Positions 17,634 through 31,137 of a stretch of 64,000 bases of DNA are shown here, one piece after another. The number at the start of each line of letters is the position of its first letter. The stretch's first letter is position 1. The notes beneath the pieces were generated by a model. The model did not search any database and was not told the DNA's origin. It saw only the letters and a list, made by a program, of their open reading frames with translations. Source of the DNA: a bacterium (GTDB lineage Bacteria; Sumerlaeota; Sumerlaeia; SLMS01; JAHLLQ01); contig JAHLLQ010000008.1 in NCBI GenBank assembly GCA_020444065.1, positions 78,138-142,137 on the forward strand, given 5' to 3'. The translations under genes and the position numbers were made by a program.

Positions 17634-17681
17634 GGTTTTCATTCCAATCCCAACACATCTTTCCCTGGAGGGCCCTCCAAT

Positions 17682-19388
17682 ATGAACGGAAAGCATTTGC
17701 TCCTCGCGGCTGGGGTGACGCTGCTCGCCGGCGCTGCCTCTGCCCAGTCAACAATCGCCGAAAACTACGAAACCCACAACTGGGTCCAGTGGTTCGGCGA
17801 CGCCCCCGTCGTGGGTTACGATGGCACCCACACCACCGAGGGCAGTTCTGCCCTGCACCTGCAATTCAACCCCGCCTCCGGACTGGCCGCAGTGAAGACC
17901 AGCGAGTTTTTGCCGGAAGTCGGCACTGGGCTCAGCACCGGCTTCACGGCCGACGTCTACGTCTCCGGCGGCACGAGCGGCGTGCCGATGTTCAAGCTCG
18001 AAATGAATGGGGAATCCGGCTCGGCCGAATCCGGCGCGGACACTGCGCTCACGCTTGATTCCTGGACGCAGGTCACGATCCCGTCGGGCAATGTCGTCGA
18101 GAACTACAAAGAGTTCCGCCTGATTATTCCGGATAATGGCGCGACCGGCGTGTTCGACATCTGGGTCGACAACATTCAGCGCGAAGGCGCCCTGTGGGAT
18201 GGTTTCGAGCAGGACAACAGCTCGTCCGTCGTCCCGGCGAATGTCGATGGGTTTGCCCGCGGCGATGCAACCGTCGGCGGTTCCGTTCTGACAAGCGCCG
18301 GCCCAGCGCCCACCGAAGGCAGCCTGCTGTGGGCGATGGAATTCAGCGGCGATTCGAACGGCGACGTTGAAATCCAACACTTCTACTCCACGCCGCTCGA
18401 TCTCAGTGGCTACGACGACATCGCGTTCGATCTCTACATCCCGAGCGGCACGACCCTTCCGGTCGCCAGCGCCTTCTTCTGGGATGGCGCTGCCGGTTCC
18501 TTCCACACTGGCCCGACGATCTCGGCCAACGATGCATGGGAAACTGTTTCGCTCGACATCACCGGGCTGGTTCCGGCTGGTGACGAGGCCTCGATCGACG
18601 AACTCAAGATCGTCCTCGGCGGCATCGGCGCGGCCGGCAAGGTCTTCCTCGACAACACGGTCTACACGAACTCGGTTCCGGTCGTGAATTCGATCGTTCG
18701 CGACGACGTGACGCCGACGAGCGCATCGTCCGTGACCTTCACGGTCAGCTTTGACGAGTACGTCAATGGCGTCGATTCCACCGACTTCGCATTCGCGGCG
18801 GGCGCGCCGACCGGCGCCTCCGTCACCAATGTCGATCCCGCCGCCGGCCCTGCCCAGGTCTACACGGTAACTGTCGATACCGGCACGGGCGATGGCGATC
18901 TCGGCTTGAATGTTGTCGATGACGACACGATTCAGGATCTCTCCGGCCTGGCGCTCGGCGGTACCGGCACGGGCAATGGCGATTTCACGGGTGAAGTCTA
19001 CGCCATCGACAAGGCGGCTCCGGGTCTTGCCTCCGGCGGACTTGCTCCCGACAGTGGACAAGCAGATCCGACCGATACGCTTCCCGTTCTCTTTACTGTG
19101 CTGTTCGACGAACCGGTCAATGGCTTCGACGAGAACGCAATCGACTTCACAGGATCGACAGAGGCTGGCTCTCTGAGCGCGGTCGTTACGCTGTCAACAC
19201 GCGGCGAGACTGGACCGTACACGGTTTCGGTCAGTGGCGCGACGGTCGAGGGCGACATCGTTATCGGCATCGTCGATGGGCTCCTGACGGACGATGCGGG
19301 CAACGCGTTCAATTCCGGCGGAGCCACGGCATCAGTTCATTACAATCCCCTGGCCGGGGTAAATGACTGGATGCAGTTCGAATACTAA
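17682..19388 (+). CDS. Secreted protein: two CBM11-like modules followed by two Ig-like (adhesin-type) domains
   Basis: ORF 17619-19388 trimmed to the ATG at 17682 (MNGKHLLLAAGVTLLAGAASA, GGAGGG SD). CBM-like module end VFDIWVDNIQREGALWDGFE. C-terminal Ig-like repeats: SVTFTVSFDEYVNGVDSTDF..., LFTVLFDEPVNGFDENAIDF.... Confidence 0.55.
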   Translation: MNGKHLLLAAGVTLLAGAASAQSTIAENYETHNWVQWFGDAPVVGYDGTHTTEGSSALHLQFNPASGLAAVKTSEFLPEVGTGLSTGFTADVYVSGGTSGVPMFKLEMNGESGSAESGADTALTLDSWTQVTIPSGNVVENYKEFRLIIPDNGATGVFDIWVDNIQREGALWDGFEQDNSSSVVPANVDGFARGDATVGGSVLTSAGPAPTEGSLLWAMEFSGDSNGDVEIQHFYSTPLDLSGYDDIAFDLYIPSGTTLPVASAFFWDGAAGSFHTGPTISANDAWETVSLDITGLVPAGDEASIDELKIVLGGIGAAGKVFLDNTVYTNSVPVVNSIVRDDVTPTSASSVTFTVSFDEYVNGVDSTDFAFAAGAPTGASVTNVDPAAGPAQVYTVTVDTGTGDGDLGLNVVDDDTIQDLSGLALGGTGTGNGDFTGEVYAIDKAAPGLASGGLAPDSGQADPTDTLPVLFTVLFDEPVNGFDENAIDFTGSTEAGSLSAVVTLSTRGETGPYTVSVSGATVEGDIVIGIVDGLLTDDAGNAFNSGGATASVHYNPLAGVNDWMQFEY

Positions 19389-19410
19389 TACTTCCATCCA
19401 CCGGCTATCG

Positions 19411-19451
19411 GCGGCGGGGGAGGATGCGCCTCGCGGCACCTCTCCCGCCGC
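19411..19451 (+). promoter_or_regulatory. Intercistronic GC-rich stem-loop with no U-tract
   Basis: GCGGCGGGGGAGG-(15 nt)-CCTCTCCCGCCGC forms a 13-bp stem with one G.U pair. Lies in the only long (92-nt) gap of the plus-strand operon. Confidence 0.6.
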
Positions 19452-19480
19452 TGAACCGCCAATTCGAAGAAGGAGAAATC

Positions 19481-20854
19481 ATGCGGTTCCTGAAACTTCT
19501 TGCAGCAATCCTTGTGTTCGCGTCGGTTGCCTCATTCGCTTCGGCCGAATGGGTCACTTGGGAGGACTTCAATACGCGTCCCTGGTCGCTGGAACCATGG
19601 CCTATCACCGAAGGATCTCAGATTTCCTTCGACAATCACATGGCTATCTCCGGCTCGACATCCTTGCGCACAACAATCAACGTTGTTGGATGGGGTGGCG
19701 GATTGACGCTGCGCAGCGCACCGATTCTACCTCCGCCCAAGCAGGGACTCACCGTCGCCATTCGCTGCGAGGCGCAGCCGGGAGCAACCGGTGTTCCGAA
19801 TGCGAAGTTTGAGGTCTACTCTCCCGATGGCGGCCCAGCAATGGGCAGCCCCGACACGCCATTGAAGGTCGGCGATTGGACGACGATTCGCCTTCCCGCC
19901 AGCGTTGTCACGAAGGAATGGTCAGGTTGTGGTGTCATCTTCCTGGAAGGCACCGCTAAGGGGAGTTTCAAGATCTGGGTAGATGCAATCACTCTCGATG
20001 GGAAGGTCTGGGAAGACTTTGAGTATAACGGCGGCTTCAATCCTTGGTTCGCCGCGAACATCAACGGTGCATACCGGATGGGCGTCGTAGGATCCGAGTA
20101 CAAGCGCGCCCCGGATCTGGGCAATGGCACGGCGATGTCGCTTGCATGGACCGGCGATACCGACGGCGCTGAACTGAAGACTCGTTTCGAATCGCCAAAG
20201 GACATCAGCGGCTGGAAGCGCATCCGCGTTCGCGTCGCCGTTCCCTCCGATTCCGTTTCTCCCCGCGTCAGCCTTTGGATGTGGGATGGATCGGAAGGCA
20301 GTCTGGCCGTCGGAGATCCCGTGATCCCCACTGGCGATTGGGTGGATCGAGTATTCGATGTTCCGGCAGCGGCTGGCGCCGTGAACCTCCACCATGTCGT
20401 TGATTTTGGACTCGTCTTTCACGAGTACCCGGGCAGCAGCGGCGAAGTCATCGTGGATCGAATCGACGTGGATGGAATTCCCGCGTCCGCGACTCGTTCT
20501 TCGACGCGCGCCAGCGATGGCAAGCCGCAGTGGAGCGCCTACGAACCCAACATGGTGATGCAGGCCGCAAAGACCGAAGGCAAGGCCGTCGTCTACGTTC
20601 GTTCCGCGAAGACGGATCGTTGTCGCGAGTTCGAGAAATCAGTCCTGCAGAATCCCCAGATCGCGAAGGTCCTGGCCGGCATGCCACTGGCCTATCTGAA
20701 TGTGGACTCGCCGGAGAACACGCGCCTCTCTGCTGAGATTGGAGTCGTGCGTGTTCCCGCGCTTGTCATCATCGAAGGCGAGAACAAAGCTCGTCAACTC
20801 GTCGTCGACACCAACACCAGCAATGACGAAGTGATCGCGTTTCTCGCCAACTAA
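19481..20854 (+). CDS. Secreted protein: two CBM11-like modules + C-terminal thioredoxin-fold domain lacking CxxC
   Basis: ORF 19424-20854 trimmed to the ATG at 19481 (MRFLKLLAAILVFASVASFASA, AGGAG SD). SFKIWVDAITLDGKVWEDFE parallels the upstream paralog. C-terminus: KAVVYVRSAKTDRCREFEKSV...VRVPALVIIEG (Trx-like, single Cys). Confidence 0.5.
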   Translation: MRFLKLLAAILVFASVASFASAEWVTWEDFNTRPWSLEPWPITEGSQISFDNHMAISGSTSLRTTINVVGWGGGLTLRSAPILPPPKQGLTVAIRCEAQPGATGVPNAKFEVYSPDGGPAMGSPDTPLKVGDWTTIRLPASVVTKEWSGCGVIFLEGTAKGSFKIWVDAITLDGKVWEDFEYNGGFNPWFAANINGAYRMGVVGSEYKRAPDLGNGTAMSLAWTGDTDGAELKTRFESPKDISGWKRIRVRVAVPSDSVSPRVSLWMWDGSEGSLAVGDPVIPTGDWVDRVFDVPAAAGAVNLHHVVDFGLVFHEYPGSSGEVIVDRIDVDGIPASATRSSTRASDGKPQWSAYEPNMVMQAAKTEGKAVVYVRSAKTDRCREFEKSVLQNPQIAKVLAGMPLAYLNVDSPENTRLSAEIGVVRVPALVIIEGENKARQLVVDTNTSNDEVIAFLAN

Positions 20855-20884
20855 TCCCAACGTTCTCAATCCTCGGAGTTCCCC

Positions 20885-23794
20885 ATGAAGACGCTCTATC
20901 AGAGAGTCATCCCCGCCCTCCTTGTCTCTGCGAGCATGACATTTGCCGCATTCGCGAACGAAATCGCCGCGACTGCGAGTTCCGGAAACGGCGATTATCG
21001 GCCGGAGCATGCCGTCGATTCCGATTCGGGAACGCGCTGGTCGAGCGACTTCAACGACGATCAGTGGCTGCTGCTCGACCTGGGTGCAGAGAAGACAATC
21101 TGCGGTGTTCGACTTCATTGGGAAACGGCTTACGGGCGCGATTACGACATCCAGGTTTCGAGCGATGGGAAGGACTTCCAAACTGTCGCAGAAACAAGGG
21201 ACGGAGATGGCGGCGTCGATGTCGTGTACTTTGGACCACGCAAGACGCGTTACGTTAGGATGGATGGGATCCGCCGCGGGACGGGGTGGGGGTATTCGCT
21301 TTGGGAAGTCGATGTGCTTGGCGACGAGGCTGCGCGCAAACTCACCGCCTCGTCAGCGCAGGCTGATCATGCGTTCGAACTTGCCATGGACGGTTCGCGC
21401 GAAACTGCCTGGCAGTCCGATTCGTCGGACAAGAAACCTTGGCTTCTCATCGAGTTCCCGCAACGCACCGCGTTTGGCGGGGTGCAGATTGTCTGGGCTG
21501 GCGATGCCGTTGGATGGAAAGCGGAGACGCAGGCCTCGGATGGCGCCTGGCACGAGCTGATGCGCTCTCCCGGTGCTGGGCCGGTGGAAGATGCATTCTT
21601 CGATCGGACGGAAGCCGAAGGATTGCGCCTGCAGTTCGAAGGCACTGCCGCAGTGGCGGAAGTCACACTGAAGGGCCCGGACGAAACGTGGAATCCGGAA
21701 CGGCACTTCGAGATGCTGTCGCAGCGCCTTCCGAAGGGCGCCATGCCGCGCTGGCTCTATCGCGAGCAAGCGTTCTGGACCATCGTTGGTCTGCCTCGTT
21801 CGCCGGAGGAGTCGCTTCTCGACGAGGATGGCCGACTGGAGACGCATCAGGGCGGATTCAGTATCACGCCGGTTCTGCTCCTCGATGGGCAGATGAAGAC
21901 AGCAAACGATTTTGCCGTCACGCAGGAACTCCTCGAAGGTTGGGCGCCGATTCCGAGCGTCGAGTGGAATGGCAATGATCTGAAGATTCGAATCGATGCA
22001 GTTGCTGCTGAACCCGGAGCAACGATCGCGCGGACAACACTTACGAATGAAGGCACGATGCCACGAAATCTTTCGTGGCTTCTGGCAGCACGACCGATTC
22101 AACTCAATCCACCGTGGCAGCACGGGGGATTCTCCGAGATTCGTGAAGCGCGTTTTGTCGCCGATGGCGCAGGCCTGATCGTTCACGGCAAAGAGGCCCT
22201 CCGTGTTATCCCGGCGCCATCGGCGACTGCGCTTGTTTCGGCAGGGGAGAGCGACGTACTGAGCACGCTAGTCTCAGGCGGGAACGACAGCGACGTTGTC
22301 ACCGCCACTCCTGGCGTGATCTCTGCCGGGATGCGGTTCGATATGCAACTGGCACCCGGAGAATCGAAGAGCATCCTACTGGAGATCCCTCTTTCCGGCC
22401 GCATCGATGATCTCGCAGCATTCGATTTCGACAATTCTCGCGATGAAGTGTTGGAGCAATGGCGCAGTTGGACCGGCGATTGGGCGATCGATGTTCCGAA
22501 CAAGCGACTCGCCCAACTGGTTCGATCGAATCTTGCCTACCTGCTGCTCAACGCCGACGGACCGAGCATCCAGCCGGGATCTCGCAATTATAACCACGCT
22601 TGGATTCGGGATGGAGCGATGAGCGCCACCGCCATGTTGCGCTTCGATGTTCGTGAACCCATCCGGGACTATGCCAAGTGGTTTGCTGGACTCGTTCACG
22701 ACGATGGGTTTGTCCCTTTCATCGTCGACCCAAAGACGAATGAAATGCCTGGATGGGCGAACGACTGGGCAGAGTATGATTCCTTTGGAGAGCTCGCTTA
22801 TCTTGCCCGTCAGGCGGACGAGTTTCTTGATGACGAGACGCTCAATAATCTGCTCTGGCCGAAGGTCAAAGCCGCGATGTCCTATCAGGAGAACCTGCGC
22901 AAGCAGCGCCTGACAGCCGAGTTCAAGGACACCGAGTTCTACGGAATTCTTCCTCCATCCAACAGTCACGAGGGTTACTTCCCCGGGAAGCACAGCTACT
23001 GGGATGACTTCTGGGCACTGCGCGGGCTGCATGATGCACAGGCTTTTGCTCGCCGCCACGGAGAGGATGAACTGGCCGATCATTACGCAGAAGAAGAAGC
23101 CGCGATGCGCACCGATCTGCTTCAATCCATCGAGCTCGTTCGGCATCGCGACAATCTTGAAACACTCCCCGCGTGCGCAGAGCTTGGCGATTTCGATCCG
23201 ACCTCCACGTCGATTGCGATGATGGTCGGCAACGAGCAGGACAATCTTCCTGCCGACGCATTGAAGGCTACGTACGATCGATATCTGGACGGGATTGAAG
23301 AGAGACGGACCACGAGCCCCAGCAGTTACACGCCGTACGAAGTGCGGACGGTTTCGGCGCTGATTCGGCTCGGACGTCCAGCCGAAGCGCGCGGCCTGCT
23401 GAACTACCTGATCGAGGACGGTGTGCGCCCGAAAGCGTGGAATCACCTTGCCGAAGTCGTGCATCCCGACCCGCGTACACCCAGCTACATCGGCGACATG
23501 CCGCATACGTGGGTTGGCTCTGGGCTGATCAATGCAGTGCGCGACTTGTTCGTCTACGAGAATGGGGAAAAACTCATCGTGGCCGCCGGCGTGCCGGACG
23601 AATGGTACGACGCCGGCGCCTCGGTGAGCAATCTCCCGACATGGTGGGGAGAACTCTCCTATCGCATGAAGAGGAATGAATCTGGAACGCGCATGATCAT
23701 TCTGGAAACAGAGGTTCATCCTCCAGGAGGCGTTGTTGCACCGACAGACGTCCAGATTGTGCACGCAAAAGTGGCAGAGGAAGGCATCAATTAA
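20885..23794 (+). CDS. Secreted hydrolase: two F5/8 type C (discoidin/CBM32-like) domains + beta-sandwich + GH15-related (alpha/alpha)6 domain
   Basis: 969 aa with a signal peptide. Discoidin pattern occurs twice (HAVDSDSGTRWSS...QWLLLDLG...YSLWEVDVLG; MDGSRETAWQS...PWLLIEF). Catalytic-domain-like motifs: NYNHAWIRDGAMS, YWDDFWALRG, MPHTWVGSG. Confidence 0.55.
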   Translation: MKTLYQRVIPALLVSASMTFAAFANEIAATASSGNGDYRPEHAVDSDSGTRWSSDFNDDQWLLLDLGAEKTICGVRLHWETAYGRDYDIQVSSDGKDFQTVAETRDGDGGVDVVYFGPRKTRYVRMDGIRRGTGWGYSLWEVDVLGDEAARKLTASSAQADHAFELAMDGSRETAWQSDSSDKKPWLLIEFPQRTAFGGVQIVWAGDAVGWKAETQASDGAWHELMRSPGAGPVEDAFFDRTEAEGLRLQFEGTAAVAEVTLKGPDETWNPERHFEMLSQRLPKGAMPRWLYREQAFWTIVGLPRSPEESLLDEDGRLETHQGGFSITPVLLLDGQMKTANDFAVTQELLEGWAPIPSVEWNGNDLKIRIDAVAAEPGATIARTTLTNEGTMPRNLSWLLAARPIQLNPPWQHGGFSEIREARFVADGAGLIVHGKEALRVIPAPSATALVSAGESDVLSTLVSGGNDSDVVTATPGVISAGMRFDMQLAPGESKSILLEIPLSGRIDDLAAFDFDNSRDEVLEQWRSWTGDWAIDVPNKRLAQLVRSNLAYLLLNADGPSIQPGSRNYNHAWIRDGAMSATAMLRFDVREPIRDYAKWFAGLVHDDGFVPFIVDPKTNEMPGWANDWAEYDSFGELAYLARQADEFLDDETLNNLLWPKVKAAMSYQENLRKQRLTAEFKDTEFYGILPPSNSHEGYFPGKHSYWDDFWALRGLHDAQAFARRHGEDELADHYAEEEAAMRTDLLQSIELVRHRDNLETLPACAELGDFDPTSTSIAMMVGNEQDNLPADALKATYDRYLDGIEERRTTSPSSYTPYEVRTVSALIRLGRPAEARGLLNYLIEDGVRPKAWNHLAEVVHPDPRTPSYIGDMPHTWVGSGLINAVRDLFVYENGEKLIVAAGVPDEWYDAGASVSNLPTWWGELSYRMKRNESGTRMIILETEVHPPGGVVAPTDVQIVHAKVAEEGIN

Positions 23795-23827: not shown

Positions 23828-24358
23828 ATGCAGAGTTTGGGCAACAAAAACAGTGGTTTCACCTTGATCGAATTATTAATCGTCGTCGCGATCATTGCAA
23901 TTCTTGCGGCGATTGCCGTTCCGAATTTCCTCGAAGCACAAACGCGGGCGAAGACCTCACGCATCAAGGCGGATGTCAGAACTCTCGCGACGGCGATGGA
24001 GTCTTATCGGGTGACCTTCAACAGGTACCCGCCAGATGCAGGACACGGGGCCCCGCCCTACAGCGGAGTCGAGAGCCTGATCCCGCTTTCGACCCCCGTA
24101 TCCTTCATCACGTCGATTCCGCGCGATCCGTTTCAGGAAGTCGACAACTCATCGTACTTCGGCTACTACTTCTACGTGCATGATCCGGATCTGCGACAGT
24201 TGCCCGCTTCCGAAAATGGAACGCGCTTCTACTGGATTCTGTTCTCGGTCGGTCCCGATCGCGATTCCGATCAGCTCGACTTCTTCCCCGTCACGCACAA
24301 CTACGATCCGACAAACGGCACAATCAGCGACGGAGACATCGGACGGTGGGGGCCATGA
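23828..24358 (+). CDS. GspG/PulG-like pseudopilin (prepilin-type N-terminal cleavage/methylation domain protein), copy 2
   Basis: ORF 23801-24358 trimmed to the ATG at 23828 (MQSLGNKNSG|FTLIELLIVVAIIAILAAIAVPNF). C-terminus: SVGPDRDSD...YDPTNGTISDGDIGRWGP. Its stop overlaps the next ATG (ATGA at 24355-24358). Confidence 0.85.
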   Translation: MQSLGNKNSGFTLIELLIVVAIIAILAAIAVPNFLEAQTRAKTSRIKADVRTLATAMESYRVTFNRYPPDAGHGAPPYSGVESLIPLSTPVSFITSIPRDPFQEVDNSSYFGYYFYVHDPDLRQLPASENGTRFYWILFSVGPDRDSDQLDFFPVTHNYDPTNGTISDGDIGRWGP

Positions 24359-26145
24359 TCAGAAAACGCACACTGACGGTTGTGGCAATTCTGCTACTGA
24401 CAATCCCGCTCGCGTGCTGTGCTCGGGTCAGCCATATCGCGCCCGGCGAGGATGAACCTGCACAGAAGATTCTCGAACTTGTGCTCGCCTCTCAGCCAAC
24501 CCCGCAGTCGTTGCCCGAGGGCAGCACCTACAATTACATCTGGGCAGAGAACATGATGGCCTGGATGGCGGCGGAGCAGTGCGGCTACATGTCTCGCGAA
24601 GAGACCGTCCGCCGTCTGCAGGGCCTGCTTGGCACTGTCGCAGATTATGAGACGCACCACGGTTTCTACTTCGATGGATACGATCCGGCCACCGGCCATG
24701 CCACGACGGACAAGGTCTATTTCCAGGGCTGGTGGCTGTGGGCGCTGATTCTGACGCGCGAGGCCTATCCCGAGGCGGCGCCATTAGCTGAGCGAATCCT
24801 CGAGCGCATCGACTACGACGCCGCAGGCATGGTAAATGCCGATCATACGGCATTGGCGGCCGATGTGTTTGTCGACAGCGGCGGCATGTCCTTCTGGTTT
24901 CGAACCGATGGAGATGTGGCCGGCGAATTGCGCACGGCATTCATTGCATACACGATGCTGACAAACGACCCGCGCCCGTGGCTGATCGAGCACGAGCCCA
25001 ACTTCATCGACGTCATGGGTCACAAGACGCTGGCCGTCTGGCATCACTTCACCTTCGATCCATTCTATGTCCACACATGCTATCCCGAGGTGGGGTACTT
25101 CGCGCACTCCTGGGATGAACTGATTGCAGGCGCACGCAAGCACCGCGAAGCAAATGGCATGGAGTTCTTCGCCACGCGCATGGAGCCCTTGCAGGCCTGG
25201 GACCTGAACCCCGACGAATGGCCGAACACCGAGCATCGCGTCGCCAAGCCATGGAACGCGTGGATCGTGGACCCCGATGCGCCCGTGATGGAACTGGCCT
25301 GGTCGCCGGGCTACGGCGTCACCCAGTACTTCGATAACTGGAACTTCAACTGGGCCGTGGGTGATCGCTACAGCGAGCATCCCAACCCCATCGGCTCGAC
25401 ACTGAATGTCACGGACAGCCGCCTCGGCGCGGACTTCCTTCTCGAGACGTTACCTGGGGATGTCGACGTCCCCAATCCCCCCACCCTTCGGAAGACTCAA
25501 CTGCGCGCCTACCCCGACAGTGAGTTCCCTCCGGACGAGCCGCTGATTGTCGAAGTCAACGGAACGGTAATCGGTAGTATTGGGACACATCGCAAAGGTG
25601 CATTCGAGATTATTCCGAAGGTACCGATAGTCTTGCAGGCGCGGAATCGACTTGAACTGCACTCGCCGGGTTATGGTGCGTGGCGTGTCGAGATGGGCGA
25701 GAAGTCTTATCGCCCCTTCCAAGCGCGCACTGCTGACACCGAATGGGAAGAAACCGAAGCCCCTGCGATCGAGATTCACGTTACCGGCCAGCGCGCCGCC
25801 CGCGAGAATCCCTACGCCTTGCTCGCAAGGCTCTCTGGTATTCACGATTTCCAGGTCTGGCAATTGATGAAGGACAGCGATCTGCTCGCCGATCGTTCCG
25901 TCGCTTGGGTTGGGGATTACTCACAGCAAACTTGGCTCGCTCGCATCGTCCACAATGTCTCCGATCAGCCAGTCTCGGTCAGTCGGACCCTGAAATCAGC
26001 CGAGAAGGATGCCCAGTGGCAAGTCGTCGACTACGCGACGGGGAACGTCATCGATTCCAGCCGAAGCGGCAACGTCTTGCACTGGCGCCAAGGACCTCGG
26101 CAAACCGCTCGCCTTCAGAAGATCAACGCCTCGATTCAGAGATGA
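24355..26145 (+). CDS. Exported hypothetical protein (possible lipoprotein), possibly a glucoamylase-like alpha-helical domain + beta-sandwich
   Basis: Start taken at the ATG at 24355 (MIRKRTLTVVAILLLTIPLACC). Helical N-terminal half (NYIWAENMMAWMAAEQCGYMSREETVRRLQGLLGTV...FYFDGYD) resembles the DUF3131/PF10091 style only loosely. No catalytic motif recognised. Confidence 0.35.
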   Translation: MIRKRTLTVVAILLLTIPLACCARVSHIAPGEDEPAQKILELVLASQPTPQSLPEGSTYNYIWAENMMAWMAAEQCGYMSREETVRRLQGLLGTVADYETHHGFYFDGYDPATGHATTDKVYFQGWWLWALILTREAYPEAAPLAERILERIDYDAAGMVNADHTALAADVFVDSGGMSFWFRTDGDVAGELRTAFIAYTMLTNDPRPWLIEHEPNFIDVMGHKTLAVWHHFTFDPFYVHTCYPEVGYFAHSWDELIAGARKHREANGMEFFATRMEPLQAWDLNPDEWPNTEHRVAKPWNAWIVDPDAPVMELAWSPGYGVTQYFDNWNFNWAVGDRYSEHPNPIGSTLNVTDSRLGADFLLETLPGDVDVPNPPTLRKTQLRAYPDSEFPPDEPLIVEVNGTVIGSIGTHRKGAFEIIPKVPIVLQARNRLELHSPGYGAWRVEMGEKSYRPFQARTADTEWEETEAPAIEIHVTGQRAARENPYALLARLSGIHDFQVWQLMKDSDLLADRSVAWVGDYSQQTWLARIVHNVSDQPVSVSRTLKSAEKDAQWQVVDYATGNVIDSSRSGNVLHWRQGPRQTARLQKINASIQR

Positions 26146-28490
26146 CGCTCATGAATGAACTATGGAAATTCGACGAGGCTGACGGCAGCCTCGTTATCAA
26201 CACGCCCACGCCGCCGCGCCCCTGGGCGAATTACCTGACGAATGGAAAGCACTTTGCCCTGATCACGCAGACGGGCGGTGGCTATTCCTTCTTCGAAAAC
26301 TGTGAGCACGGCCATCTGACCCGGTGGGCGCCGGCGAACTACCTCGCCGATCGACCTGGGCGATGGATCTACATCCGCGACAAGGCGACCGGCGATCTGT
26401 GGACGCCGAACTTCCAACCGACGCAGAATGCCGAGGACTTTCAGGGCCGTCACAGCATCGTAGAAACGACTCTCCAGTCGAAGCGAAACGGCATTCGCGC
26501 CTCCATGACCTATACTGTGCTCACAGAAGATCTGCGCCGCGAGGAGTGGCTCGTTCAAATCATCAACGAAAGCAACAAGAGACGCGAACTGGCCGTCTAC
26601 CCGCTGATCTTCTGGCAACTTGGGCATTACTTCTCCGATCTTGGAACTGCGAACCTGACCGCACTGATGAACCACGGGCGATTTGATCGCGATCGCAATG
26701 CCATCCGCGTCTCGCAGGCGCCTTGGGGAAACAAACCATGGCCGTACGAGGGATACTTCGCTTCCTCGCTGCCGATCGAGGCCTGGGAAATCGATCAGGA
26801 ACTCCTTGCTGGTCCCGGAGGGTCATGGGAACGACCGCATGGAATCACGGCTGGCAAGTTGACCAGCCCGGATTCCATCATGGGCGTTCCGATGGTGGCG
26901 TGCTATCAGCATAATGTGGAACTGGAGCCGGGCGAAGAGTTGGAGTTCACGATCGTACTCGGTGAAGGTGAACCAACGATTCCTCCCTCGCCCAACGAGT
27001 TCCGAGCGCTTCTCGATCAGCGTCGGCGCGAGGCGCGACGCTACTATACCGAGGACAGTTTCCAAATTGAGACGCCGCACGAAGGTTTGAATCAAATCGC
27101 GAACCTGTGGCTGAAACGCCAGGTCGTGATCAATAATCTGCTCGGGCGTAGCGCGACGCTGTACCACGAAGGCGGCGGCGAGTTGGGCTACCGCAACACG
27201 GCCCAGGATGCCTGGGGCATCTTGCCCATGGATGCCGAGTTTGCGCAGCAGCGCCTGGAGAAACTGTGCGAACACCAGCGGTCCTCCGGCCAGCCATTGC
27301 CCGGCTGGACCCCTTTGGTTGGCCCGTCGACGCACGAGCCACCCAGCGATTTCCCCGTCTGGCTTCCAATGCTCGCGCTGGATATCGTGAAGGAAACGGG
27401 GGACGGAGACTTTCTCGACAAGCCGCTTCGATTCTTCGATGGTGGCGAGGCACCGCTGTACGAGCATCTGATTCGCGCCGTCGACTTCCTGCATGCCCGC
27501 GCGCGCAGTCCACGCGGCCTGCCGCTGATGGGCACGCAGGACTGGAACGACGCGTTCGATCGGGTTGGCGCCGGCGGAAAGGGAGAGAGCGTTTGGCTCG
27601 CAATGGCGCATTGTTTTGCTCTGTTACGACTGGAGGAACTCGCGGCGTGGCGCGGCGATGAGGCGACCGCAAAACACTGTCGTCAACTCTGGCAGGAGAC
27701 GCGCGATCTCGTAAATCGACACGCCTGGGATGGTGACTGGTATGTCATCGCATTCGACGACGAGGGCCGCCCGGTTGGCTCAAGAAAGAATGAAGAGGGG
27801 AGGATTCACCTGAATGCTCAGACGTGGGCAATCATGGCGGAGATCCCGGATGCTGAGCAGATAGCAAAGATTCTGCGCGTCATTGACGAGCAACTCGACT
27901 CACCTCTCGGTCCTGTGATGCATGCTCCAGCTTACACAAAGTACAATCCCGCCGTGGGCCGAATCACCGCGTTTGCACCGGGTACGAAAGAGAATGCCGC
28001 GCTGTTTACTCATGCGGGCGCGTTCAAAATCTGGGCGGACTTGAAGCTGGGACGCGCGGAGCAAGCCTGGCGCACGTTTGATGCGCTTCTTCCATCCGGT
28101 CCCCATCGCGACCTGCAGATATATCGCGGCGAACCGCACGTCTTCTGCGAGTACGCGATCGGACCCGGAAACCCGCGGCACGGTGAAGGCACATTTACGT
28201 GGCTGACGGGTTCGGCCGATTGGCTGCTGCGAGCACTGCTGGATCGCATCATCGGAGTCGAACCAGATTTCGATTCTCTCAAAGTCGCGCCATGTCTGCC
28301 CCCTGCATGGAGAAGCGCGCGCTTGCGTCGCCCATGGCGTGGCGCGACTTACGAAATCGAGATTACCAGTCCCACCGGATCATCGCTGCAGATCGCATCT
28401 ATTCGTATCGATGGGAATCGAGCAACCGAACATCGCATCCCGGCCTTCAGAGATGGCCGTACGCACACAATCAAGATTGAGATGGAGTAA
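26142..28490 (+). CDS. GH94 glycoside phosphorylase, copy 2
   Basis: ORF 25743-28490 trimmed to the ATG at 26142 (MTLMNELWKFDEADGSLVINTPTPPRPWANYLTNG...TGGGYSFF), which makes an ATGA overlap with the upstream stop. Also GTQDWNDAFDRVGAGGKGESVWLAM. 782 aa. Confidence 0.85.
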   Translation: MTLMNELWKFDEADGSLVINTPTPPRPWANYLTNGKHFALITQTGGGYSFFENCEHGHLTRWAPANYLADRPGRWIYIRDKATGDLWTPNFQPTQNAEDFQGRHSIVETTLQSKRNGIRASMTYTVLTEDLRREEWLVQIINESNKRRELAVYPLIFWQLGHYFSDLGTANLTALMNHGRFDRDRNAIRVSQAPWGNKPWPYEGYFASSLPIEAWEIDQELLAGPGGSWERPHGITAGKLTSPDSIMGVPMVACYQHNVELEPGEELEFTIVLGEGEPTIPPSPNEFRALLDQRRREARRYYTEDSFQIETPHEGLNQIANLWLKRQVVINNLLGRSATLYHEGGGELGYRNTAQDAWGILPMDAEFAQQRLEKLCEHQRSSGQPLPGWTPLVGPSTHEPPSDFPVWLPMLALDIVKETGDGDFLDKPLRFFDGGEAPLYEHLIRAVDFLHARARSPRGLPLMGTQDWNDAFDRVGAGGKGESVWLAMAHCFALLRLEELAAWRGDEATAKHCRQLWQETRDLVNRHAWDGDWYVIAFDDEGRPVGSRKNEEGRIHLNAQTWAIMAEIPDAEQIAKILRVIDEQLDSPLGPVMHAPAYTKYNPAVGRITAFAPGTKENAALFTHAGAFKIWADLKLGRAEQAWRTFDALLPSGPHRDLQIYRGEPHVFCEYAIGPGNPRHGEGTFTWLTGSADWLLRALLDRIIGVEPDFDSLKVAPCLPPAWRSARLRRPWRGATYEIEITSPTGSSLQIASIRIDGNRATEHRIPAFRDGRTHTIKIEME

Positions 28491-28494: not shown

Positions 28495-31137
28495 TTGAAG
28501 CCAACAGCACTGAAAACACGGATCGATCTCAATGGCGAGTGGCAATTGGCACCCGGTACGCGCAATGGAAAGCGCGTGCCGAAGCGCTGGAGTTTCAGTC
28601 TGCCCGTGCCCGGGCTTGTCGATCTTGCTGAAGGCTATGAGTACGGCAAGCGGCGCTATCATTTCTACCGGCGCGTAATCGACCTTCCAGCAACACCGAG
28701 CGGCACGGAAGTCGATCTTGTTCTGGAGCAGAGCATGTGGACGACCGCCGTCTGGTGCAACGGGCACGCGGTCGGCGAATCAGACGATTGTTACCTGCCG
28801 CAACGCTTTGACCTGACTCCTCATTTGCGCACCGGCCGAAATGAGATCGCCGTTCGCATCGGCGGATACGATACTTTGCCAGAGGATCACGTTGGGGGAA
28901 AAGACCACGAGCGCATCGAATGGATTCCCGGCATCTGGGGCGATGCTTTCCTGCATATCTTCCGTCGCGCTCGCATAGAGAGTATCCAAGTCCTTCCTGA
29001 TGACGATTTGCGCGGATGCCGGTTGCTCGCGCGCATCGAGAATCGCAGTGGCCAGCGTCTGAATGCCACTGTTCGCGCTGAAGTGGCGGAGTTCAAATCG
29101 AATGCGGTCGTCCAGTCTCAAAGCGAACCTGTCCGACTGCAATCGGGCAAAACGAGGGAAGTCGAACTGCAACTCCGCTGGAACAATGCGAAGCGATGGT
29201 CGCCGGAGTCCCCGTTCCTCTACCTTGCCAATGTCACGTTGATCGAAGACGACGAGATCCTCGATGGAAGCTCTGCCCGCTTTGGCCTTCGCAAGATTGA
29301 GATTCGCGGAAATCAGTTCTATCTGAATGGAACGAAGAGACCTCTGCGCGGTGGAAACATCGCGTTTCATCGATTTCTCGGCGACGTCTCGCGCCGCGAT
29401 TTGCCCTGGAACATGAAATGGGTACGGCGCGTTTTCGCGACCATTCCCAAAGCGCATCACATGACGTTCTTCCGCGCGCACATCGGCCTCATGTATCGAT
29501 GTTGGTACGATATCGCGGACGAGGAAGGCATTCTGCTGCAGGACGAATGGCCGTTCTGGGGTGTGTCGGCGTCGATGCCGCGCGTACGCGATGCATTCAT
29601 CAAGTGGCTTCGAGCGCATGGGAATCATCCATCGATCATCCTTTGGGATCCGGGAAATGAATGCGACCTCTCAGAGGTTGGGCGGCGCGCGATTCCCGCA
29701 ATGAAGAAGCTCGATCCCACGCGTCCATGGTGCCATGTCGACACCCACGAAGAGCACCCCTACCATTGGTCTCTAACGCCGGTGTGGCCCGAGCGCGCGA
29801 TGGGGCATGCGCGCTCACCAGAGGACATTCGCGACTCCGATGTCCCGGCGATTATCAATGAGTTTGTCTGGTTCTGGCTGGATTCAAAGGGCGATACCAC
29901 GGTTCTGACAGACATGGTGATCGAGCGCTGGCTCGGCACGAATGTACCGAAGAAGCAGCGTCTCGAATACCAGGCCTGGCTCGCGCGTGAGTGCATCGAA
30001 GTCTGGCGTCGGCTGGACATCGCAGCGATACAACCCTTCGTTTACCTGAGCGCCGACGGGGGATGTACGGCGAACTGGTTCGATGGAGACTTGACGAAGG
30101 CGAAACCAAAGCCCGTGTTGCGCGCCGTGAAAGAAGCGCTCGCGCCACTAGGCGTCAGCATCGACCTGTGGGACAGGCACTTCTTCCCGGGAGAGCGCCG
30201 GACAATACCTGTGCACGTCTTCAATGACTATCCCACCGCCAAGACAATGCGATTGGAATTCGGATTTGCATCGAAGGCGCGGCGCTGGCTGAACGAGCCA
30301 GACGTGCAGCAGCTCAAGCTGTCTGCCGCGACTCATCGCGTGTTGCGCATCCCGATCGAAATGCCAACGCGCGGCGATGCGATCCTGCTGGCGAAGTGCT
30401 TCACCGAGGACGGACAAGAGATGGGCGTCAGCGAGAAGACCATCCACATTCTTCCGAAGCCCGTTGCACCAACAAAGATTCGCAAACTGCGAGTTGCTAT
30501 GATCGATCCGCGCGGAGAAATGCACGATTGGACTGAGAGACAAGGGCTTTCCACTGGTCAGCCAACGCCCGAGTCGCTCTCTGGCTACCAGGTTCTGTGG
30601 CTTGGCGAAGGCGCGCTTCAGTCAAAGGAGTTTGTGGACATCCAACCCAAGCTGCGAACCTTCGTGCGCAGTGGGGGACTGCTGATCGTTCAGGAGCCGG
30701 AGTTCGAACGTGACAACCAGGAAGAGATCGAATTCTTTCCAGGCACAAAGATCGTCGCCGGGCCGCGAAACGATGTCGACAAGGGCGGGTACGACGCTGT
30801 CGTTCATCCGACCGCGGAGTGTCCGCAGGAGTTGCTTCACGGCCTGAAGCCCAAGCATCTCTCATACTTCAGTGGCGGCACGCCCGGCATGGTCGTCTCC
30901 GAAGGTGTGGCGGAAATCACGGGGCGCGGCGAAGTCTGGATGCGGTGCGGGATTAGACTCAAGATCCCGGCGTTGTCAGCGAAGCGAATCGGCGACGGCG
31001 TTGTTATCGTAAATCGAGTGCAACTTCGCGGTCGCCTGCTTGGCGAAAAGACAGGGTCTTGGCCGCGTCGACCCGATCCCGTGGCACAGAAGTTAGCATT
31101 GAATCTGCTGGCATTTGCAGGACGGCAAACGCGCTGA
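28495..31137 (+). CDS. GH2-family glycoside hydrolase (beta-mannosidase/beta-galactosidase-like), cytoplasmic
   Basis: Start uncertain: TTG at 28495 (GGAG 8 nt upstream) or ATG at 28453 (38-nt overlap). GH2 sugar-binding N-domain (IDLNGEWQL...VWCNGHAVGESDDCYLPQRFDLT), ILWDPGNECDL (acid/base), IINEFVWFWLD (nucleophile region). Confidence 0.7.
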   Translation: MKPTALKTRIDLNGEWQLAPGTRNGKRVPKRWSFSLPVPGLVDLAEGYEYGKRRYHFYRRVIDLPATPSGTEVDLVLEQSMWTTAVWCNGHAVGESDDCYLPQRFDLTPHLRTGRNEIAVRIGGYDTLPEDHVGGKDHERIEWIPGIWGDAFLHIFRRARIESIQVLPDDDLRGCRLLARIENRSGQRLNATVRAEVAEFKSNAVVQSQSEPVRLQSGKTREVELQLRWNNAKRWSPESPFLYLANVTLIEDDEILDGSSARFGLRKIEIRGNQFYLNGTKRPLRGGNIAFHRFLGDVSRRDLPWNMKWVRRVFATIPKAHHMTFFRAHIGLMYRCWYDIADEEGILLQDEWPFWGVSASMPRVRDAFIKWLRAHGNHPSIILWDPGNECDLSEVGRRAIPAMKKLDPTRPWCHVDTHEEHPYHWSLTPVWPERAMGHARSPEDIRDSDVPAIINEFVWFWLDSKGDTTVLTDMVIERWLGTNVPKKQRLEYQAWLARECIEVWRRLDIAAIQPFVYLSADGGCTANWFDGDLTKAKPKPVLRAVKEALAPLGVSIDLWDRHFFPGERRTIPVHVFNDYPTAKTMRLEFGFASKARRWLNEPDVQQLKLSAATHRVLRIPIEMPTRGDAILLAKCFTEDGQEMGVSEKTIHILPKPVAPTKIRKLRVAMIDPRGEMHDWTERQGLSTGQPTPESLSGYQVLWLGEGALQSKEFVDIQPKLRTFVRSGGLLIVQEPEFERDNQEEIEFFPGTKIVAGPRNDVDKGGYDAVVHPTAECPQELLHGLKPKHLSYFSGGTPGMVVSEGVAEITGRGEVWMRCGIRLKIPALSAKRIGDGVVIVNRVQLRGRLLGEKTGSWPRRPDPVAQKLALNLLAFAGRQTR

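What the first reader, a model, noticed from the sequence alone, without database searches (positions are those of the whole stretch)
23828..24358. Second pseudopilin paralog in the opposite operon arm, with an N-terminus conserved despite many synonymous changes
Copy 2 (MQSLGNKNSG|FTLIELL...) shares an identical 31-residue stretch with copy 1: GFTLIELLIVVAIIAILAAIAVPNFLEAQTR. By my reading, roughly half of those 31 codons differ synonymously between the copies (for example gga/ggt, acg/acc, ctg/ttg, gtt/gtc, cag/caa, cgc/cgg). This points to purifying selection rather than recent gene conversion. The globular parts have diverged but keep three shared motifs: TP(I/V)S(Y/F)(L/I)TS.PRDP(Y/F), GPD.DSD and YD.TNGT(V/I)SDG(N/D)I.R(F/W)GP. 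Copy 2 is also embedded by coupling: its stop overlaps the ATG of the next exported protein (ATGA at 24355-24358), and that protein in turn overlaps GH94 copy 2 (ATGA at 26142-26145). Two arm-specific pseudopilins suggest substrate-specific or partner-specific variants of one pilin scaffold.
Basis: seen in the sequence. Interest (0 to 1): 0.7.

Follow-up and report, generated by a model that had tools for sequence, protein, structure and literature searches.

The report
Pseudopilin paralogs inside beta-glucan operons
Two small pilin-like genes sit inside two separate sugar-polymer (beta-glucan) degradation operons of a probable Sumerlaeota bacterium. They are ordinary members of a very large pilin-like gene family, but each belongs to its own branch that has stayed with its operon across several genomes, which hints at a still unknown role in sugar-polymer use.

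Summary
Copy 2 (23828-24358, +) and copy 1 (10231-10809, -) share an identical 31-residue N-terminus, and 17 of its 31 codons differ synonymously. The three C-terminal motifs and the ATGA overlaps are present.

Synonymous sites are saturated everywhere (pS about 0.70), so recent gene conversion is excluded. However, the identical helix is simply the family consensus: 74 of the 120 best relatives carry it verbatim. All three "shared motifs" are also generic to a very large family. The head domain alone finds 2205 clusters at 50% identity, mostly named Sumerlaeota. The motifs therefore define no CAZyme-linked subfamily, and family members in general have heterogeneous neighbours.

The two copies are no closer to each other than to random family members. 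Each belongs to its own clade with clade-specific conserved inserts, and each clade keeps its operon in other genomes:
- Copy-1 type sits in GH94-LacI-pilin-GH144 operons.
- Copy-2 type sits upstream of a rare 596-aa GH144-like protein, followed by GH94.

The predicted fold is GspG-like. No secretion or pilus machinery lies within the 64 kb.

The most likely reading is operon-specific subunits of a shared type IV filament or T2SS machine. This is a new member of a known kind and of moderate interest.

The parts
23828..24358 (+). Copy 2: 176-aa prepilin-type, GspG-like pseudopilin. It has a 10-residue leader, a G|FTLIELL cleavage motif with E+5 and P+22, and no cysteine.
   Evidence: Translation. 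Pfam N_methyl 38.3 bits and T2SSG 20.4 bits, just under the cut-off. NCBIfam TIGR02532 35 bits and GspG 54.8 bits against a cut-off of 88.85. AF2 pLDDT 79. The best Foldseek matches to the whole head are EpsG/GspG.
23855..23947 (+). Coding region of the 31-residue stretch (residues 10-40) that is identical to copy 1. It covers the cleavage site plus the hydrophobic alpha1-N helix.
   Evidence: 17 of 31 codons differ synonymously. pS is 0.715 and dN is 0. The same 30-residue string occurs verbatim in 74 of the 120 top relatives and in 33 of 140 diverse representatives found with a head-only query.
10231..10809 (-). Copy 1: 192-aa paralogue of the same family, from a different clade. Its ATG overlaps the stop of the LacI gene.
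   Evidence: Orthologues of 58-66% identity sit in the same operon type in L091, L092/L093 and L094/L095.
10678..10770 (-). Coding region of the identical 31-residue stretch in copy 1 (residues 14-44).
24355..26145 (+). 596-aa exported protein directly downstream of copy 2 (alternative GTG start at 24346). It belongs to a rare family with no Pfam or NCBIfam model and a predicted GH144-like (alpha/alpha)6 domain plus beta-sandwich domains.
   Evidence: No Pfam or NCBIfam family. Only 17 relatives in 5.8 billion proteins. AF2 pLDDT 88. Foldseek top hits are the endo-beta-1,2-glucanases 5gzk and 8xul. A pilin-like gene lies within two genes upstream in 5 of 6 contexts seen.
26142..28490 (+). GH94 copy 2, a cytoplasmic phosphorylase. 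The start is 26142 or 26151.
   Evidence: Pfam GH94 domains. The best PDB match is cellobiose phosphorylase, E 1e-116. It is 63-68% identical to the GH94 downstream of the 596-aa family in L088, L090 and L004.
28495..31137 (+). GH2-like protein that closes the plus-strand operon.
   Evidence: Pfam GH2 domains. Start taken from the gene call in L001. 42% identical to the gene at the same position in L088.
17619..23794 (+). Three exported proteins upstream of copy 2. Two are paralogues without any Pfam domain (17619-19388 and 19424-20854). The third is a 969-aa protein with two F5/8 type C domains (20885-23794).
   Evidence: Pfam. Homologues of the 589-aa protein lie directly upstream of the pseudopilin in L088 and L090. 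The L088 homologue shows a match to the SGBP_B_XBD model.
10806..14311 (-). GH94 copy 1 (11882-14311) and a LacI-family regulator (10806-11885), directly upstream of copy 1. All junctions are ATGA overlaps.
   Evidence: Pfam. The best PDB match of GH94 copy 1 is the GH94 domain of cyclic beta-1,2-glucan synthase, E 8e-155. Junction sequences are shown.
5528..10221 (-). Two signal-peptide proteins (lipobox-like N-termini, read by eye) downstream of copy 1: a 536-aa GH2_C-type TIM-barrel protein (8611-10221) and a 1028-aa GH144 endo-beta-1,2-glucanase-like protein (5528-8614).
   Evidence: Pfam Glyco_hydro_2_C and Glycoamylase PF10091. PDB matches 8xul at 2e-38 and 5gzh at 2e-34. Orthologues occupy the same positions in L091 and L094.
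14336..17400 (-). ABC importer at the head of the minus-strand operon: a solute-binding protein fused to a permease (15163-17400), plus a second permease (14336-15226).
   Evidence: Pfam SBP_bac_1/8 plus BPD_transp_1. The same fusion is found in L088, L092 and L095.

Best explanation
Both genes encode small type IV pilin-like proteins with a GspG-type (major pseudopilin) head. They belong to a very large family that is expanded in Sumerlaeota and a few neighbouring lineages.

Shown:
- Both have a class III signal peptide with G-1/F+1/E+5/P+22.
- The alpha1-N helix is held identical by family-wide purifying selection.
- The head has a GspG-like predicted fold with clade-specific conserved inserts.
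- The two copies fall in two different orthologous clades. Each clade has stayed inside its own beta-1,2-glucan/beta-glucan utilisation operon in several genomes.
- No assembly machinery lies nearby.

Inferred:
- The proteins are cut and N-methylated by a prepilin peptidase.
- They are transcribed together with their operon, under the LacI-type regulator in the case of copy 1.
- They are fed into one shared type IV filament machine (T2SS-like or T4P) encoded elsewhere. This would explain why thousands of paralogues must keep the same polymerisation helix.
- The variable head adapts that common filament to the operon's extracellular step.

Within this last inference I lean slightly towards export or surface display of the operon's exported glycanases and binding proteins, following the PulG/pullulanase paradigm (about 0.35). 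The alternative is direct capture of the glycan (about 0.25).
For: Identity of the protein:
- Pfam N_methyl and TIGR02532 score above their cut-offs in both copies.
- The AF2 model shows a long alpha1 helix plus a small alpha/beta head.
- The best Foldseek matches to the whole head are the major pseudopilins 3gn9, 4lw9, 3fu1 and 3g20, with target-normalised TM-score 0.57-0.66 and probability 0.96-1.0.

Family-wide constraint:
- In the consensus of 120 relatives, F11-L17, P32, Y159, D160, N163, G164, S167 and G169 are invariant.
- The exact helix string is present in 74/120, 65/102 and 33/140 sequences of three sets.
- pS is saturated in both the helix and the head, dN in the helix is 0, and omega in the head is about 0.3.

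Family size:
- Full-length searches saturate at 8000 hits.
- A head-only search finds 2205 clusters at 50% identity with E<=1e-3.
- Several loci occur per genome, with tandem arrays of up to 5 genes.

Operon fidelity:
- Copy-1 orthologues sit in GH94-LacI-pilin-(GH2_C)-GH144 operons in L091, L094/L095 and L092/L093.
- Copy-2-type pilins sit upstream of the 596-aa family in L004, L090 and L088.
- The flanking genes are orthologous at 42-68% identity.
- The clades are clean: 9 of 9 and 18 of 18 members have their best head match inside their own clade.
- The clade-specific inserts are conserved.

No machinery nearby:
- About 36 window ORFs were scanned and none is a T2SS or T4P gene.
- No T2SS/T4P family shows up in the listed Pfam families of 42 operonic neighbours (25 of 47 families listed), and none among 10 array neighbours scanned individually.

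Literature:
- T4P genes are reported in all Sumerlaeota MAGs studied (PMC8092238).
- In a Verrucomicrobiota isolate, a pulG-like pseudopilin with 67 paralogues lies inside an alginate utilisation cluster, most of whose genes were over-expressed on alginate (PMC13274419).
Against: - There are no expression data, so co-transcription is inferred only from gene overlaps and gaps of 33 nt or less.
- Neither curated GspG model reaches its cut-off, and only the N-terminal half aligns.
- Foldseek E-values are weak (0.01-0.1), and the variable inserts are modelled with low confidence, pLDDT 50-68.
- No assembly machine was seen, so assembly into a filament is an assumption.
- Many family members elsewhere sit next to cytoplasmic or housekeeping genes. 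A strictly cargo-linked role does not explain this.
- In one context (L089) the 596-aa family gene has no pilin-like neighbour.
- The tree is neighbour-joining without bootstrap support.
Confidence: 0.6

Rival explanations
1. Glycan-capture or uptake fibre. The operon-specific heads bind beta-glucan chains or oligosaccharides directly. A retractile type IV filament then holds them at the surface or pulls them through the outer layer to the membrane-tethered ABC importer. This would be analogous to DNA uptake by competence pseudopili and to the dextran-binding fibres of Planctomycetes.
For: - The clade-specific inserts are aromatic-rich. W/Y/F make up 16-18% of the head in the two copies (for example GWDYFEFWSEP and SYFGYYFYVH), against a family mean of 14%.
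- The operons contain no TonB/SusCD-type outer-membrane importer.
- Their solute-binding protein is fused to the permease.
- Elsewhere, family members neighbour sugar transporters and catabolic enzymes such as SSF, MFS and fucose isomerase.
- Pili-like fibres of Planctomycetes bind dextran (PMC5394234).
Against: - There are no binding data.
- The head is small (about 130 residues) and no known carbohydrate-binding module was detected in it.
- The aromatic content is only modestly above the family mean.
- The envelope architecture of the organism is unknown.
Confidence: 0.25
2. Not a filament subunit. The prepilin-type helix serves only as a membrane anchor, and the head acts in the periplasm as an accessory of the operon. 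This would resemble the class III signal peptide sugar-binding proteins and small pilin-like Bas proteins of the Sulfolobus bindosome (recalled from my own knowledge, not tested here), or a chaperone or anchor for the lipoprotein glycanases.
For: - No assembly genes lie near any family member examined.
- The family is dispersed among catabolic and transport genes.
- The related DUF1559 expansion of Planctomycetes has been described as a family of solute-binding proteins (PMC2754498).
Against: - The polymerisation helix, including E+5 and P+22, is conserved almost to the residue across the family. This is far more than a membrane anchor requires.
- The head has the major-pseudopilin fold.
Confidence: 0.1
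3. Passenger paralogues. The genes are generic copies of an expanding family that landed in these operons and have no operon-specific function.
For: - The family is very large.
- Members have heterogeneous neighbours, including housekeeping genes such as LytB, RF-1 and SMC.
- The shared motifs are generic.
Against: - Both lineages keep their position in orthologous operons across genomes whose flanking proteins are only 42-68% identical.
- The clade-specific head inserts are conserved, and omega in the head is about 0.3.
- In L096 a pilin-like gene of a different type lies two genes upstream of a 596-aa family gene.
Confidence: 0.08
4. A recent local duplication, or gene conversion between the two arms, keeps the N-termini identical.
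For: The 31 residues are identical.
Against: - 17 of 31 codons differ, and pS in the helix (0.715) equals that of the rest of the gene (0.703), near saturation.
- Copy 1 is only the 63rd best hit of copy 2.
- The two copies fall in different clades.
- The flanking GH94 genes are only 34% identical.
Confidence: 0.01

Closest known systems
GspG / PulG / EpsG, the major pseudopilin of the type II secretion system (PDB 3gn9, 4lw9, 3fu1, 3g20, 1t92)
   Same: - Prepilin leader with G-1/F+1/E+5, and P+22 in a long alpha1 helix.
- A small head with a short helix and a three-stranded sheet.
- No stabilising disulfide.
- Conserved acidic and Asn/Ser/Gly residues in the C-terminal loop, in the region where GspG binds calcium (my reading; not tested).
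- These structures are the best Foldseek matches to the whole head.
- In the classical Pul system the pseudopilin is also genetically linked to a lipoprotein glycanase, pullulanase (recalled from my own knowledge).
   Different: - Below the curated cut-offs of TIGR01710 and PF08334, with only the N-terminal half aligning.
- The head carries clade-specific inserts of about 30-50 residues.
- The gene is encoded alone inside catabolic operons, not in a gspC-M operon.
- It occurs as many paralogues per genome.
PulG-like pseudopilin paralogues of Verrucomicrobiota, e.g. pgaptmp_000050 in the alginate utilisation cluster of Verruconatronum alginivorum (PMC13274419)
   Same: An orphan PulG-like gene lies inside a polysaccharide utilisation cluster and has dozens of paralogues in the genome (67 reported). 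Most genes of that cluster were over-expressed on alginate, and a separate pseudopilin outside the two clusters was among the over-expressed genes. The T2SS operon itself lies elsewhere.
   Different: - Different phylum and different substrate.
- Sequence relationship to the present family was not tested.
- Here the link is shown by conserved synteny of two separate clades rather than by expression.
DUF1559 (PF07596) / H-X9-DG (TIGR04294) prepilin-type families of Planctomycetota, Lentisphaerota and Verrucomicrobiota
   Same: Large lineage-specific expansions of proteins with the same prepilin-type N-terminus and a variable head. They are scattered over the genome, and their function is unknown. 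R. baltica has 74 copies.
   Different: - Neither copy matches PF07596 or TIGR04294 at E<=0.01.
- The heads here are shorter (about 130 aa).
- They end in YDPTNGTxSxGDIxRxGP rather than H-X9-DG.
Type IVa major pilins (Geobacter PilA, Myxococcus PilA, Neisseria PilE)
   Same: The alpha1-N helix is almost identical. Geobacter pilin is the best PDB sequence match, and the match covers only the helix. The best NCBIfam match is Myxococcus PilA at 66 bits, N-terminus only.
   Different: - No C-terminal disulfide-bonded D-region: copy 2 has no cysteine and copy 1 has one.
- The head is not T4a-like.
- Scores are far below the family cut-off (66 against 400 bits).

Membership tests
Type IV pilin-like superfamily (prepilin-type N-terminal cleavage/methylation domain; PF07963, TIGR02532) | Score above the curated cut-off of the N-terminal domain models | tested here: met
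   PF07963 scores 38.3 and 25.5 bits against a cut-off of 21.2. TIGR02532 scores 35.0 and 28.5 bits against 16.3.
Type IV pilin-like superfamily (prepilin-type N-terminal cleavage/methylation domain; PF07963, TIGR02532) | Short basic leader, Gly at -1, Phe at +1, Glu at +5, then about 20 hydrophobic residues | tested here: met
   MQSLGNKNSG|FTLIELLIVVAIIAILAAIAVP and MKRIFRRKHKRGMG|FTLIELL.... F, E and P are invariant in 120 relatives.
Type IV pilin-like superfamily (prepilin-type N-terminal cleavage/methylation domain; PF07963, TIGR02532) | Cleavage and N-methylation by a prepilin peptidase | not testable with these tools
   No peptidase gene lies in the window. This needs the whole genome and biochemistry.
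GspG, T2SS major pseudopilin (TIGR01710, PF08334) | Score above the curated cut-off over the whole domain | tested here: not met
   TIGR01710 scores 54.8 and 54.3 bits against 88.85, covering profile positions 1-66/73 of 134. PF08334 scores 20.4 and 20.2 bits against 21, covering positions 2-41/52 of 108.
GspG, T2SS major pseudopilin (TIGR01710, PF08334) | GspG-type fold of the globular head | tested here: met
   AF2 model with pLDDT 79. The whole-head Foldseek matches are 3gn9, 4lw9, 3fu1 and 3g20, with target-normalised TM-score 0.57-0.66 and probability 0.96-1.0, though E-values are only 0.017-0.1.
GspG, T2SS major pseudopilin (TIGR01710, PF08334) | Encoded in a gsp operon with the ATPase, platform, secretin and minor pseudopilins | tested here: not met
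   No such gene occurs among about 36 ORFs of the 64-kb window. No such family shows up in the listed Pfam families of 42 operonic neighbours (25 of 47 listed), and none among 10 array neighbours scanned individually.
GspG, T2SS major pseudopilin (TIGR01710, PF08334) | Calcium-binding C-terminal loop instead of a disulfide | not testable with these tools
   There is no disulfide-capable cysteine pair. D160, N163, G164, S167 and G169 are invariant and would be compatible with a metal site, but coordination was not modelled.
DUF1559 / H-X9-DG prepilin-type family (PF07596, TIGR04294) | Match to the head-domain or C-terminal motif models | tested here: not met
   Neither model matches either copy at E<=0.01.
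Verru_Chthon cassette protein D (TIGR02596) | Score above the cut-off | tested here: not met
   26.7 and 24.3 bits against a cut-off of 70, N-terminus only.
Type IVa major pilin (e.g. NF041775 PilA) | Score above the cut-off, and a disulfide-bonded C-terminal D-region | tested here: not met
   66.3 and 64.4 bits against a cut-off of 400, N-terminus only. Copy 2 has no Cys and copy 1 has one.
Uncurated 'YDPTNGTxSxGDI' pseudopilin family of Sumerlaeota and neighbouring lineages (defined here) | Consensus helix plus LTTPxxYxTS, DPF, GPD and YDPTNGTxSxGDIxRxGP; at least 140 bits against the family HMM | tested here: met
   Both copies score 246 and 278 bits, whereas generic pilins score below 110. 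Motif frequencies in three sequence sets are given.

The most novel reading that the evidence does not exclude
The huge, unexplained expansions of orphan pseudopilin genes in Sumerlaeota (and, by analogy, in PVC phyla) may be a modular system. In it, each catabolic operon brings its own head-variant subunit for one shared type IV filament machine.

The filament would then act as a substrate-induced, glycan-specific capture and uptake device, or as an enzyme-docking device. This would be a SusCD-independent 'pilus-type' polysaccharide utilisation locus.

The two clades described here, each locked to a beta-1,2-glucan/beta-glucan operon, would be the first pairs in which a head variant can be matched to a defined substrate.
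Probability: 0.25. Interest if true: 0.8.

Novelty: new member of a known kind. Interest (0 to 1): 0.4.

Why it matters
Orphan pilin-like genes number in the dozens to hundreds per genome in several environmental phyla, and their function is unknown.

This locus does not reveal a new kind of protein. It does offer two clean test cases:
- Two separate clades of the family are each conserved inside a defined operon, probably for beta-1,2-glucan use.
- One clade is paired with a very rare, unannotated GH144-like enzyme family.

This makes it possible to test experimentally whether operon-embedded pseudopilins serve that operon's secretion, display or substrate capture. A purified head, a defined glycan and a defined partner protein would be enough to start.

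Tried and rejected
- **Gene conversion or recent duplication:** rejected, because synonymous sites are saturated and the copies fall in different clades.
- **A CAZyme-linked subfamily defined by the three motifs:** rejected, because the motifs are family-generic.
- **Family-wide CAZyme linkage:** not supported. Among 42 same-strand neighbours within 150 bp, only Laminin_G_3 recurs (3 times). The rest are singletons and include housekeeping genes. Neighbours of tandem arrays are mixed. This used a crude longest-ORF gene call and had no matched control set.
- **DUF1559 / H-X9-DG, Verru_Chthon cassette and T4a pilin membership:** rejected by model scores.
- **PDB search by sequence profile:** matched only the alpha1 helix and was uninformative for the head.
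- **Promoter and terminator scans:** at or below the shuffled expectation, so uninformative.
- **Literature on Sumerlaeota pilins, or on pseudopilins with CAZymes:** nothing specific was found except the Verruconatronum paper.
- **Pilin-like ORF upstream of the 596-aa family gene in L096:** it looks like an H-X9-DG-type protein by eye, but neither library confirmed this.
- **Paralogue number per genome:** could not be counted. The genome scan was cut at 600 pattern matches and 80 loci, and the source genome is not among the representatives.
- **Taxonomic assignment:** rests only on the names attached to the closest relatives.
Full report
**1. The observation**

The ORF at 23828-24358 (+) translates to a 176-aa protein beginning MQSLGNKNSGFTLIELL. 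A six-frame motif scan finds only one other such gene in the window, on the minus strand at 10231-10809, 192 aa.

The two proteins are 55% identical overall (93/169) and share the identical 31-residue stretch GFTLIELLIVVAIIAILAAIAVPNFLEAQTR. Within it, 17 of 31 codons differ, all synonymously. The three C-terminal motifs are present in both copies.

The ATGA sequences at 24355-24358 and 26142-26145 are real. Alternative starts exist: GTG at 24346 for the downstream gene and ATG at 26151 for GH94. An automatic gene call on an identical public contig uses both. Copy 1 is packed in the same way, with ATGA overlaps at GH94/LacI, LacI/pilin and 536-aa/1028-aa.

**2. Selection versus conversion**

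I calculated Nei-Gojobori estimates on the codon alignment. In the 31-codon helix pS is 0.715 and dN is 0. In the head pS is 0.703, pN is 0.42 and omega is about 0.3.

Synonymous sites are therefore equally saturated along the whole gene. There is no locally homogenised tract, the paralogues are old, and the helix is under absolute purifying selection.

**3. The helix and the motifs are generic**

A protein search with copy 2 saturates at 8000 hits. The named ones are 'prepilin-type N-terminal cleavage/methylation domain-containing protein' or 'type II secretion system protein G' from Sumerlaeota/Sumerlaeia MAGs.

The consensus of the best 120 is GFTLIELLIVVAIIAILAAIAVPNFLEAQTRSKVSRVKADMR..ATALEAYRVD.N.YPPD...LTTPVAY.TS.P.DPF...W.L.S.GPD...YDPTNGT.S.GDI.R.GP. 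F11-L17, P32, Y159, D160, N163, G164, S167 and G169 are invariant.

The exact 30-residue helix string occurs in 74 of these 120 sequences and in 65 of 102 further relatives of copy 1. It also occurs in 33 of 140 diverse representatives that were found with a query lacking the helix.

That head-only query (132 aa) finds 2205 clusters at 50% identity with E<=1e-3 among 1.84 billion representatives. Of these, 171 have E<=1e-10 and only 2 have E<=1e-30. YD.[TS]NG is present in 137 of the 140 listed representatives.

Much of the helix is generic even to type IVa pilins, since Geobacter and Myxococcus PilA are the best sequence matches.

**4. What kind of protein**

Pfam and NCBIfam recognise only the N-terminal methylation domain (above cut-off) and the first 40-70 positions of the GspG models (below cut-off). 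There is no match to DUF1559 or H-X9-DG.

AlphaFold2 with the 120-sequence alignment gives pLDDT 79 and pTM 0.74. The model shows an alpha1 helix (13-64), a short helix and three strands. The inserts at 73-77 and 107-111 have low confidence.

The Foldseek matches that cover the whole head are the T2SS major pseudopilins of Vibrio and EHEC. Target-normalised TM-scores are 0.57-0.66 and probabilities 0.96-1.0, though E-values are only 0.017-0.1.

Copy 2 has no cysteine and copy 1 has one, so there is no T4a-type disulfide. The protein is thus a GspG-like pseudopilin by fold and N-terminus, but it is not a curated GspG equivalog.

**5. No machinery nearby, and the family is dispersed**

About 36 ORFs of the window were scanned, and none is a T2SS or T4P component or a prepilin peptidase.

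A scan of species-representative genomes returned 80 loci. Full-length relatives are almost all in Sumerlaeota, unnamed MAGs or MAGs labelled Omnitrophota. One genome contributes up to 6 loci, although the scan was truncated.

An HMM of the family separates members (140 bits or more) from generic pilins (below 110 bits). It finds 85 members in these loci, including tandem arrays of up to five.

The 42 same-strand neighbours within 150 bp are heterogeneous. Laminin_G_3 occurs three times. The rest are singletons, including LacI, MFS, SSF, fucose isomerase, FGE-sulfatase and GFO/IDH/MocA, but also LytB, RF-1 and SMC. Neighbours of the arrays are equally mixed. Two of the three more distant homologues inspected individually are singletons among unrelated genes. 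The family as a whole is not CAZyme-specific.

**6. The two lineages are faithful to their operons**

*Copy 1.* Relatives of 58-66% identity lie in GH94-LacI-pilin-GH144 (L091), SBP::permease-permease-GH94-LacI-pilin-GH2_C-GH144 (L094/L095), and a rearranged pilin-GH94-LacI-GH144-GH1 (L092/L093).

*Copy 2.* The downstream 596-aa protein has only 17 relatives in 5.8 billion proteins. A family pseudopilin lies directly upstream of it in the window, L004 and L090, and one gene away in L088. It is absent in L089. In L096 a truncated pilin-like ORF of another type lies two genes upstream. It scores 29 bits to the family HMM and was not confirmed by Pfam or NCBIfam.

*Flanking genes.* They are orthologous: GH94 63-68%, GH2-like 42%, GH144 57-60%, GH2_C 51% and the SBP::permease fusion 49%. 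Homologues of the exported 589-aa protein lie upstream of the pilin in L088 and L090. By contrast, the two GH94 genes of the window are only 34% identical to each other.

*Tree.* In a neighbour-joining tree of 226 family members, the copy-2-type pilins form a clade of 9 and the copy-1-type a clade of 18. Every member has its best head match inside its own clade. Copy 1 ranks 116 of 225 in distance from copy 2, and their head identity (0.51) is about the family median.

*Inserts.* Each clade has its own conserved insert segments. In the copy-2 clade these include DAGHGAPPYSG and FGYxFYVHxPxxRQL. In the copy-1 clade they include ETPxxFPGSPFxxIGGGYFAY and GWDxYEYWSEPxxGFD. These positions are gaps or variable in the rest of the family.

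The two genes are therefore not 'variants made for the two arms'. They are two old orthologous lineages, each locked to a different operon.

**7. What the operons do**

The minus-strand arm encodes:
- an ABC importer whose binding protein is fused to a permease;
- a GH94 phosphorylase whose best solved relative is the GH94 domain of cyclic beta-1,2-glucan synthase, E 8e-155;
- a LacI regulator and the pseudopilin;
- a GH2_C-type protein with a lipobox-like signal peptide;
- a 1028-aa protein, likewise with a lipobox-like signal peptide, whose N-terminal domain matches GH144 endo-beta-1,2-glucanases, with 8xul at 2e-38 and 5gzh at 2e-34.

The plus-strand arm encodes:
- exported proteins of unknown family and an F5/8-type-C protein;
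- the pseudopilin;
- the 596-aa protein, whose AF2 model (pLDDT 88) best matches GH144 endo-beta-1,2-glucanases and PF10091 structures, with probability 1.0 and target-normalised TM-score 0.39-0.49;
- a GH94 closest to cellobiose phosphorylase;
- a GH2-like protein.

This fits the established scheme of beta-1,2-glucan use: extracellular endo-glucanase, ABC import, then cytoplasmic GH94 phosphorolysis (recalled from my own knowledge of the GH144 and GH94 systems). Substrate assignment of the plus arm is less certain.

**8. Mechanism**

*Shown:* the class III signal peptide, a family-wide invariant polymerisation helix, a GspG-like head with clade-specific conserved surfaces, conserved operon membership, and the absence of local machinery.

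*Inferred:*
- The proteins are processed by a prepilin peptidase.
- They are expressed with the operon.
- They are assembled by a shared type IV filament machine encoded elsewhere.

The need for all paralogues to fit one peptidase, one platform and one filament core explains the observation that prompted the finding. T4P genes were reported in all Sumerlaeota MAGs studied (PMC8092238).

For the head, I lean slightly towards export or surface display of the operon's exported enzymes and binding proteins, and less towards direct glycan capture. The available evidence does not separate the two.

There are two precedents:
- In Verruconatronum alginivorum, a pulG-like pseudopilin with 67 paralogues lies inside an alginate utilisation cluster, most of whose genes were over-expressed on alginate. 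The T2SS operon itself lies elsewhere (PMC13274419).
- Pili-like fibres of Planctomycetes bind dextran (PMC5394234).

**9. Verdict**

It is partly wrong: the motifs and the helix are generic, and the two copies are not a special pair.

This is a new member of a known kind, namely orphan GspG-like pseudopilin paralogues in glycan-utilisation clusters, and the function is unresolved. Interest is moderate. It comes from the clean clade-to-operon correspondence and from the rare GH144-like partner family.

**Caveats**
- Neighbour analysis used simple ORF calling and had no matched control.
- The tree has no bootstrap support.
- The genome scan was truncated.
- Taxonomy is inferred from the names of relatives.
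- There are no expression or binding data.

Noticed in passing
window 24355-26145 (+): A 596-aa exported protein without any Pfam or NCBIfam family and with only 17 relatives in 5.8 billion proteins. A confident AF2 model (pLDDT 88) has an N-terminal (alpha/alpha)6 domain that best matches GH144 endo-beta-1,2-glucanases (5gzk, 8xul) and PF10091 'putative glucoamylase' structures, followed by beta-sandwich domains. It is a candidate new, very rare GH144-like glycoside hydrolase family.
   Followed up: partly
window 5528-8614 (-): A 1028-aa protein with a lipobox-like signal peptide. It has an N-terminal GH144 endo-beta-1,2-glucanase domain. A second region matches PDB 8wy1 ('Glycosyltransferase 36') and residues 1228-1492 of cyclic beta-1,2-glucan synthase. 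This two-domain architecture is conserved in L091 and L094.
   Followed up: partly
window 11882-14311 (-) and 26142-28490 (+): The two GH94 genes are only 34% identical. Copy 1 is closest to the GH94 domain of cyclic beta-1,2-glucan synthase (8e-155) and copy 2 to cellobiose phosphorylase (1e-116). Each is 62-68% identical to its orthologue in other genomes. The two arms are therefore distinct, old operons that may act on different beta-glucans.
   Followed up: partly
window 15163-17400 (-): An ABC solute-binding protein fused in one polypeptide to a permease (SBP_bac_1/8 plus BPD_transp_1, 745 aa). The same fusion is conserved in related loci L088, L092/L093 and L095.
   Followed up: partly
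window 17619-19388 and 19424-20854 (+): Two paralogous exported proteins (27% identical) without any Pfam domain. Proteins with the same ~340-aa domain lie directly upstream of the pseudopilin in L088 and L090, and the L088 one shows a match to the SGBP_B_XBD model. They may be glycan-binding proteins of an undescribed family.
   Followed up: partly
L096:2-793 (+), two genes upstream of a 596-aa family gene: A truncated ORF starting ...VIAIIAILAAILFPVF and ending ...FQDGHAKRL. It is a pilin-like protein of a different type, resembling H-X9-DG by eye, next to the same rare enzyme family in another lineage. It scores 29 bits to the family HMM, but neither Pfam nor NCBIfam recognises it.
   Followed up: partly
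L014:3725-8664 (+); also L020, L025: Tandem arrays of three to five family pseudopilin genes in other MAGs, without adjacent T2SS or T4P genes. Neighbours include a sugar transferase, a PMT-type glycosyltransferase, a GFO/IDH/MocA oxidoreductase and an SSF transporter.
   Followed up: partly
window 3297-4910 (+): A 537-aa protein with a signal-peptide-like N-terminus and no Pfam family. It lies just beyond the end of the minus-strand operon.
   Followed up: no
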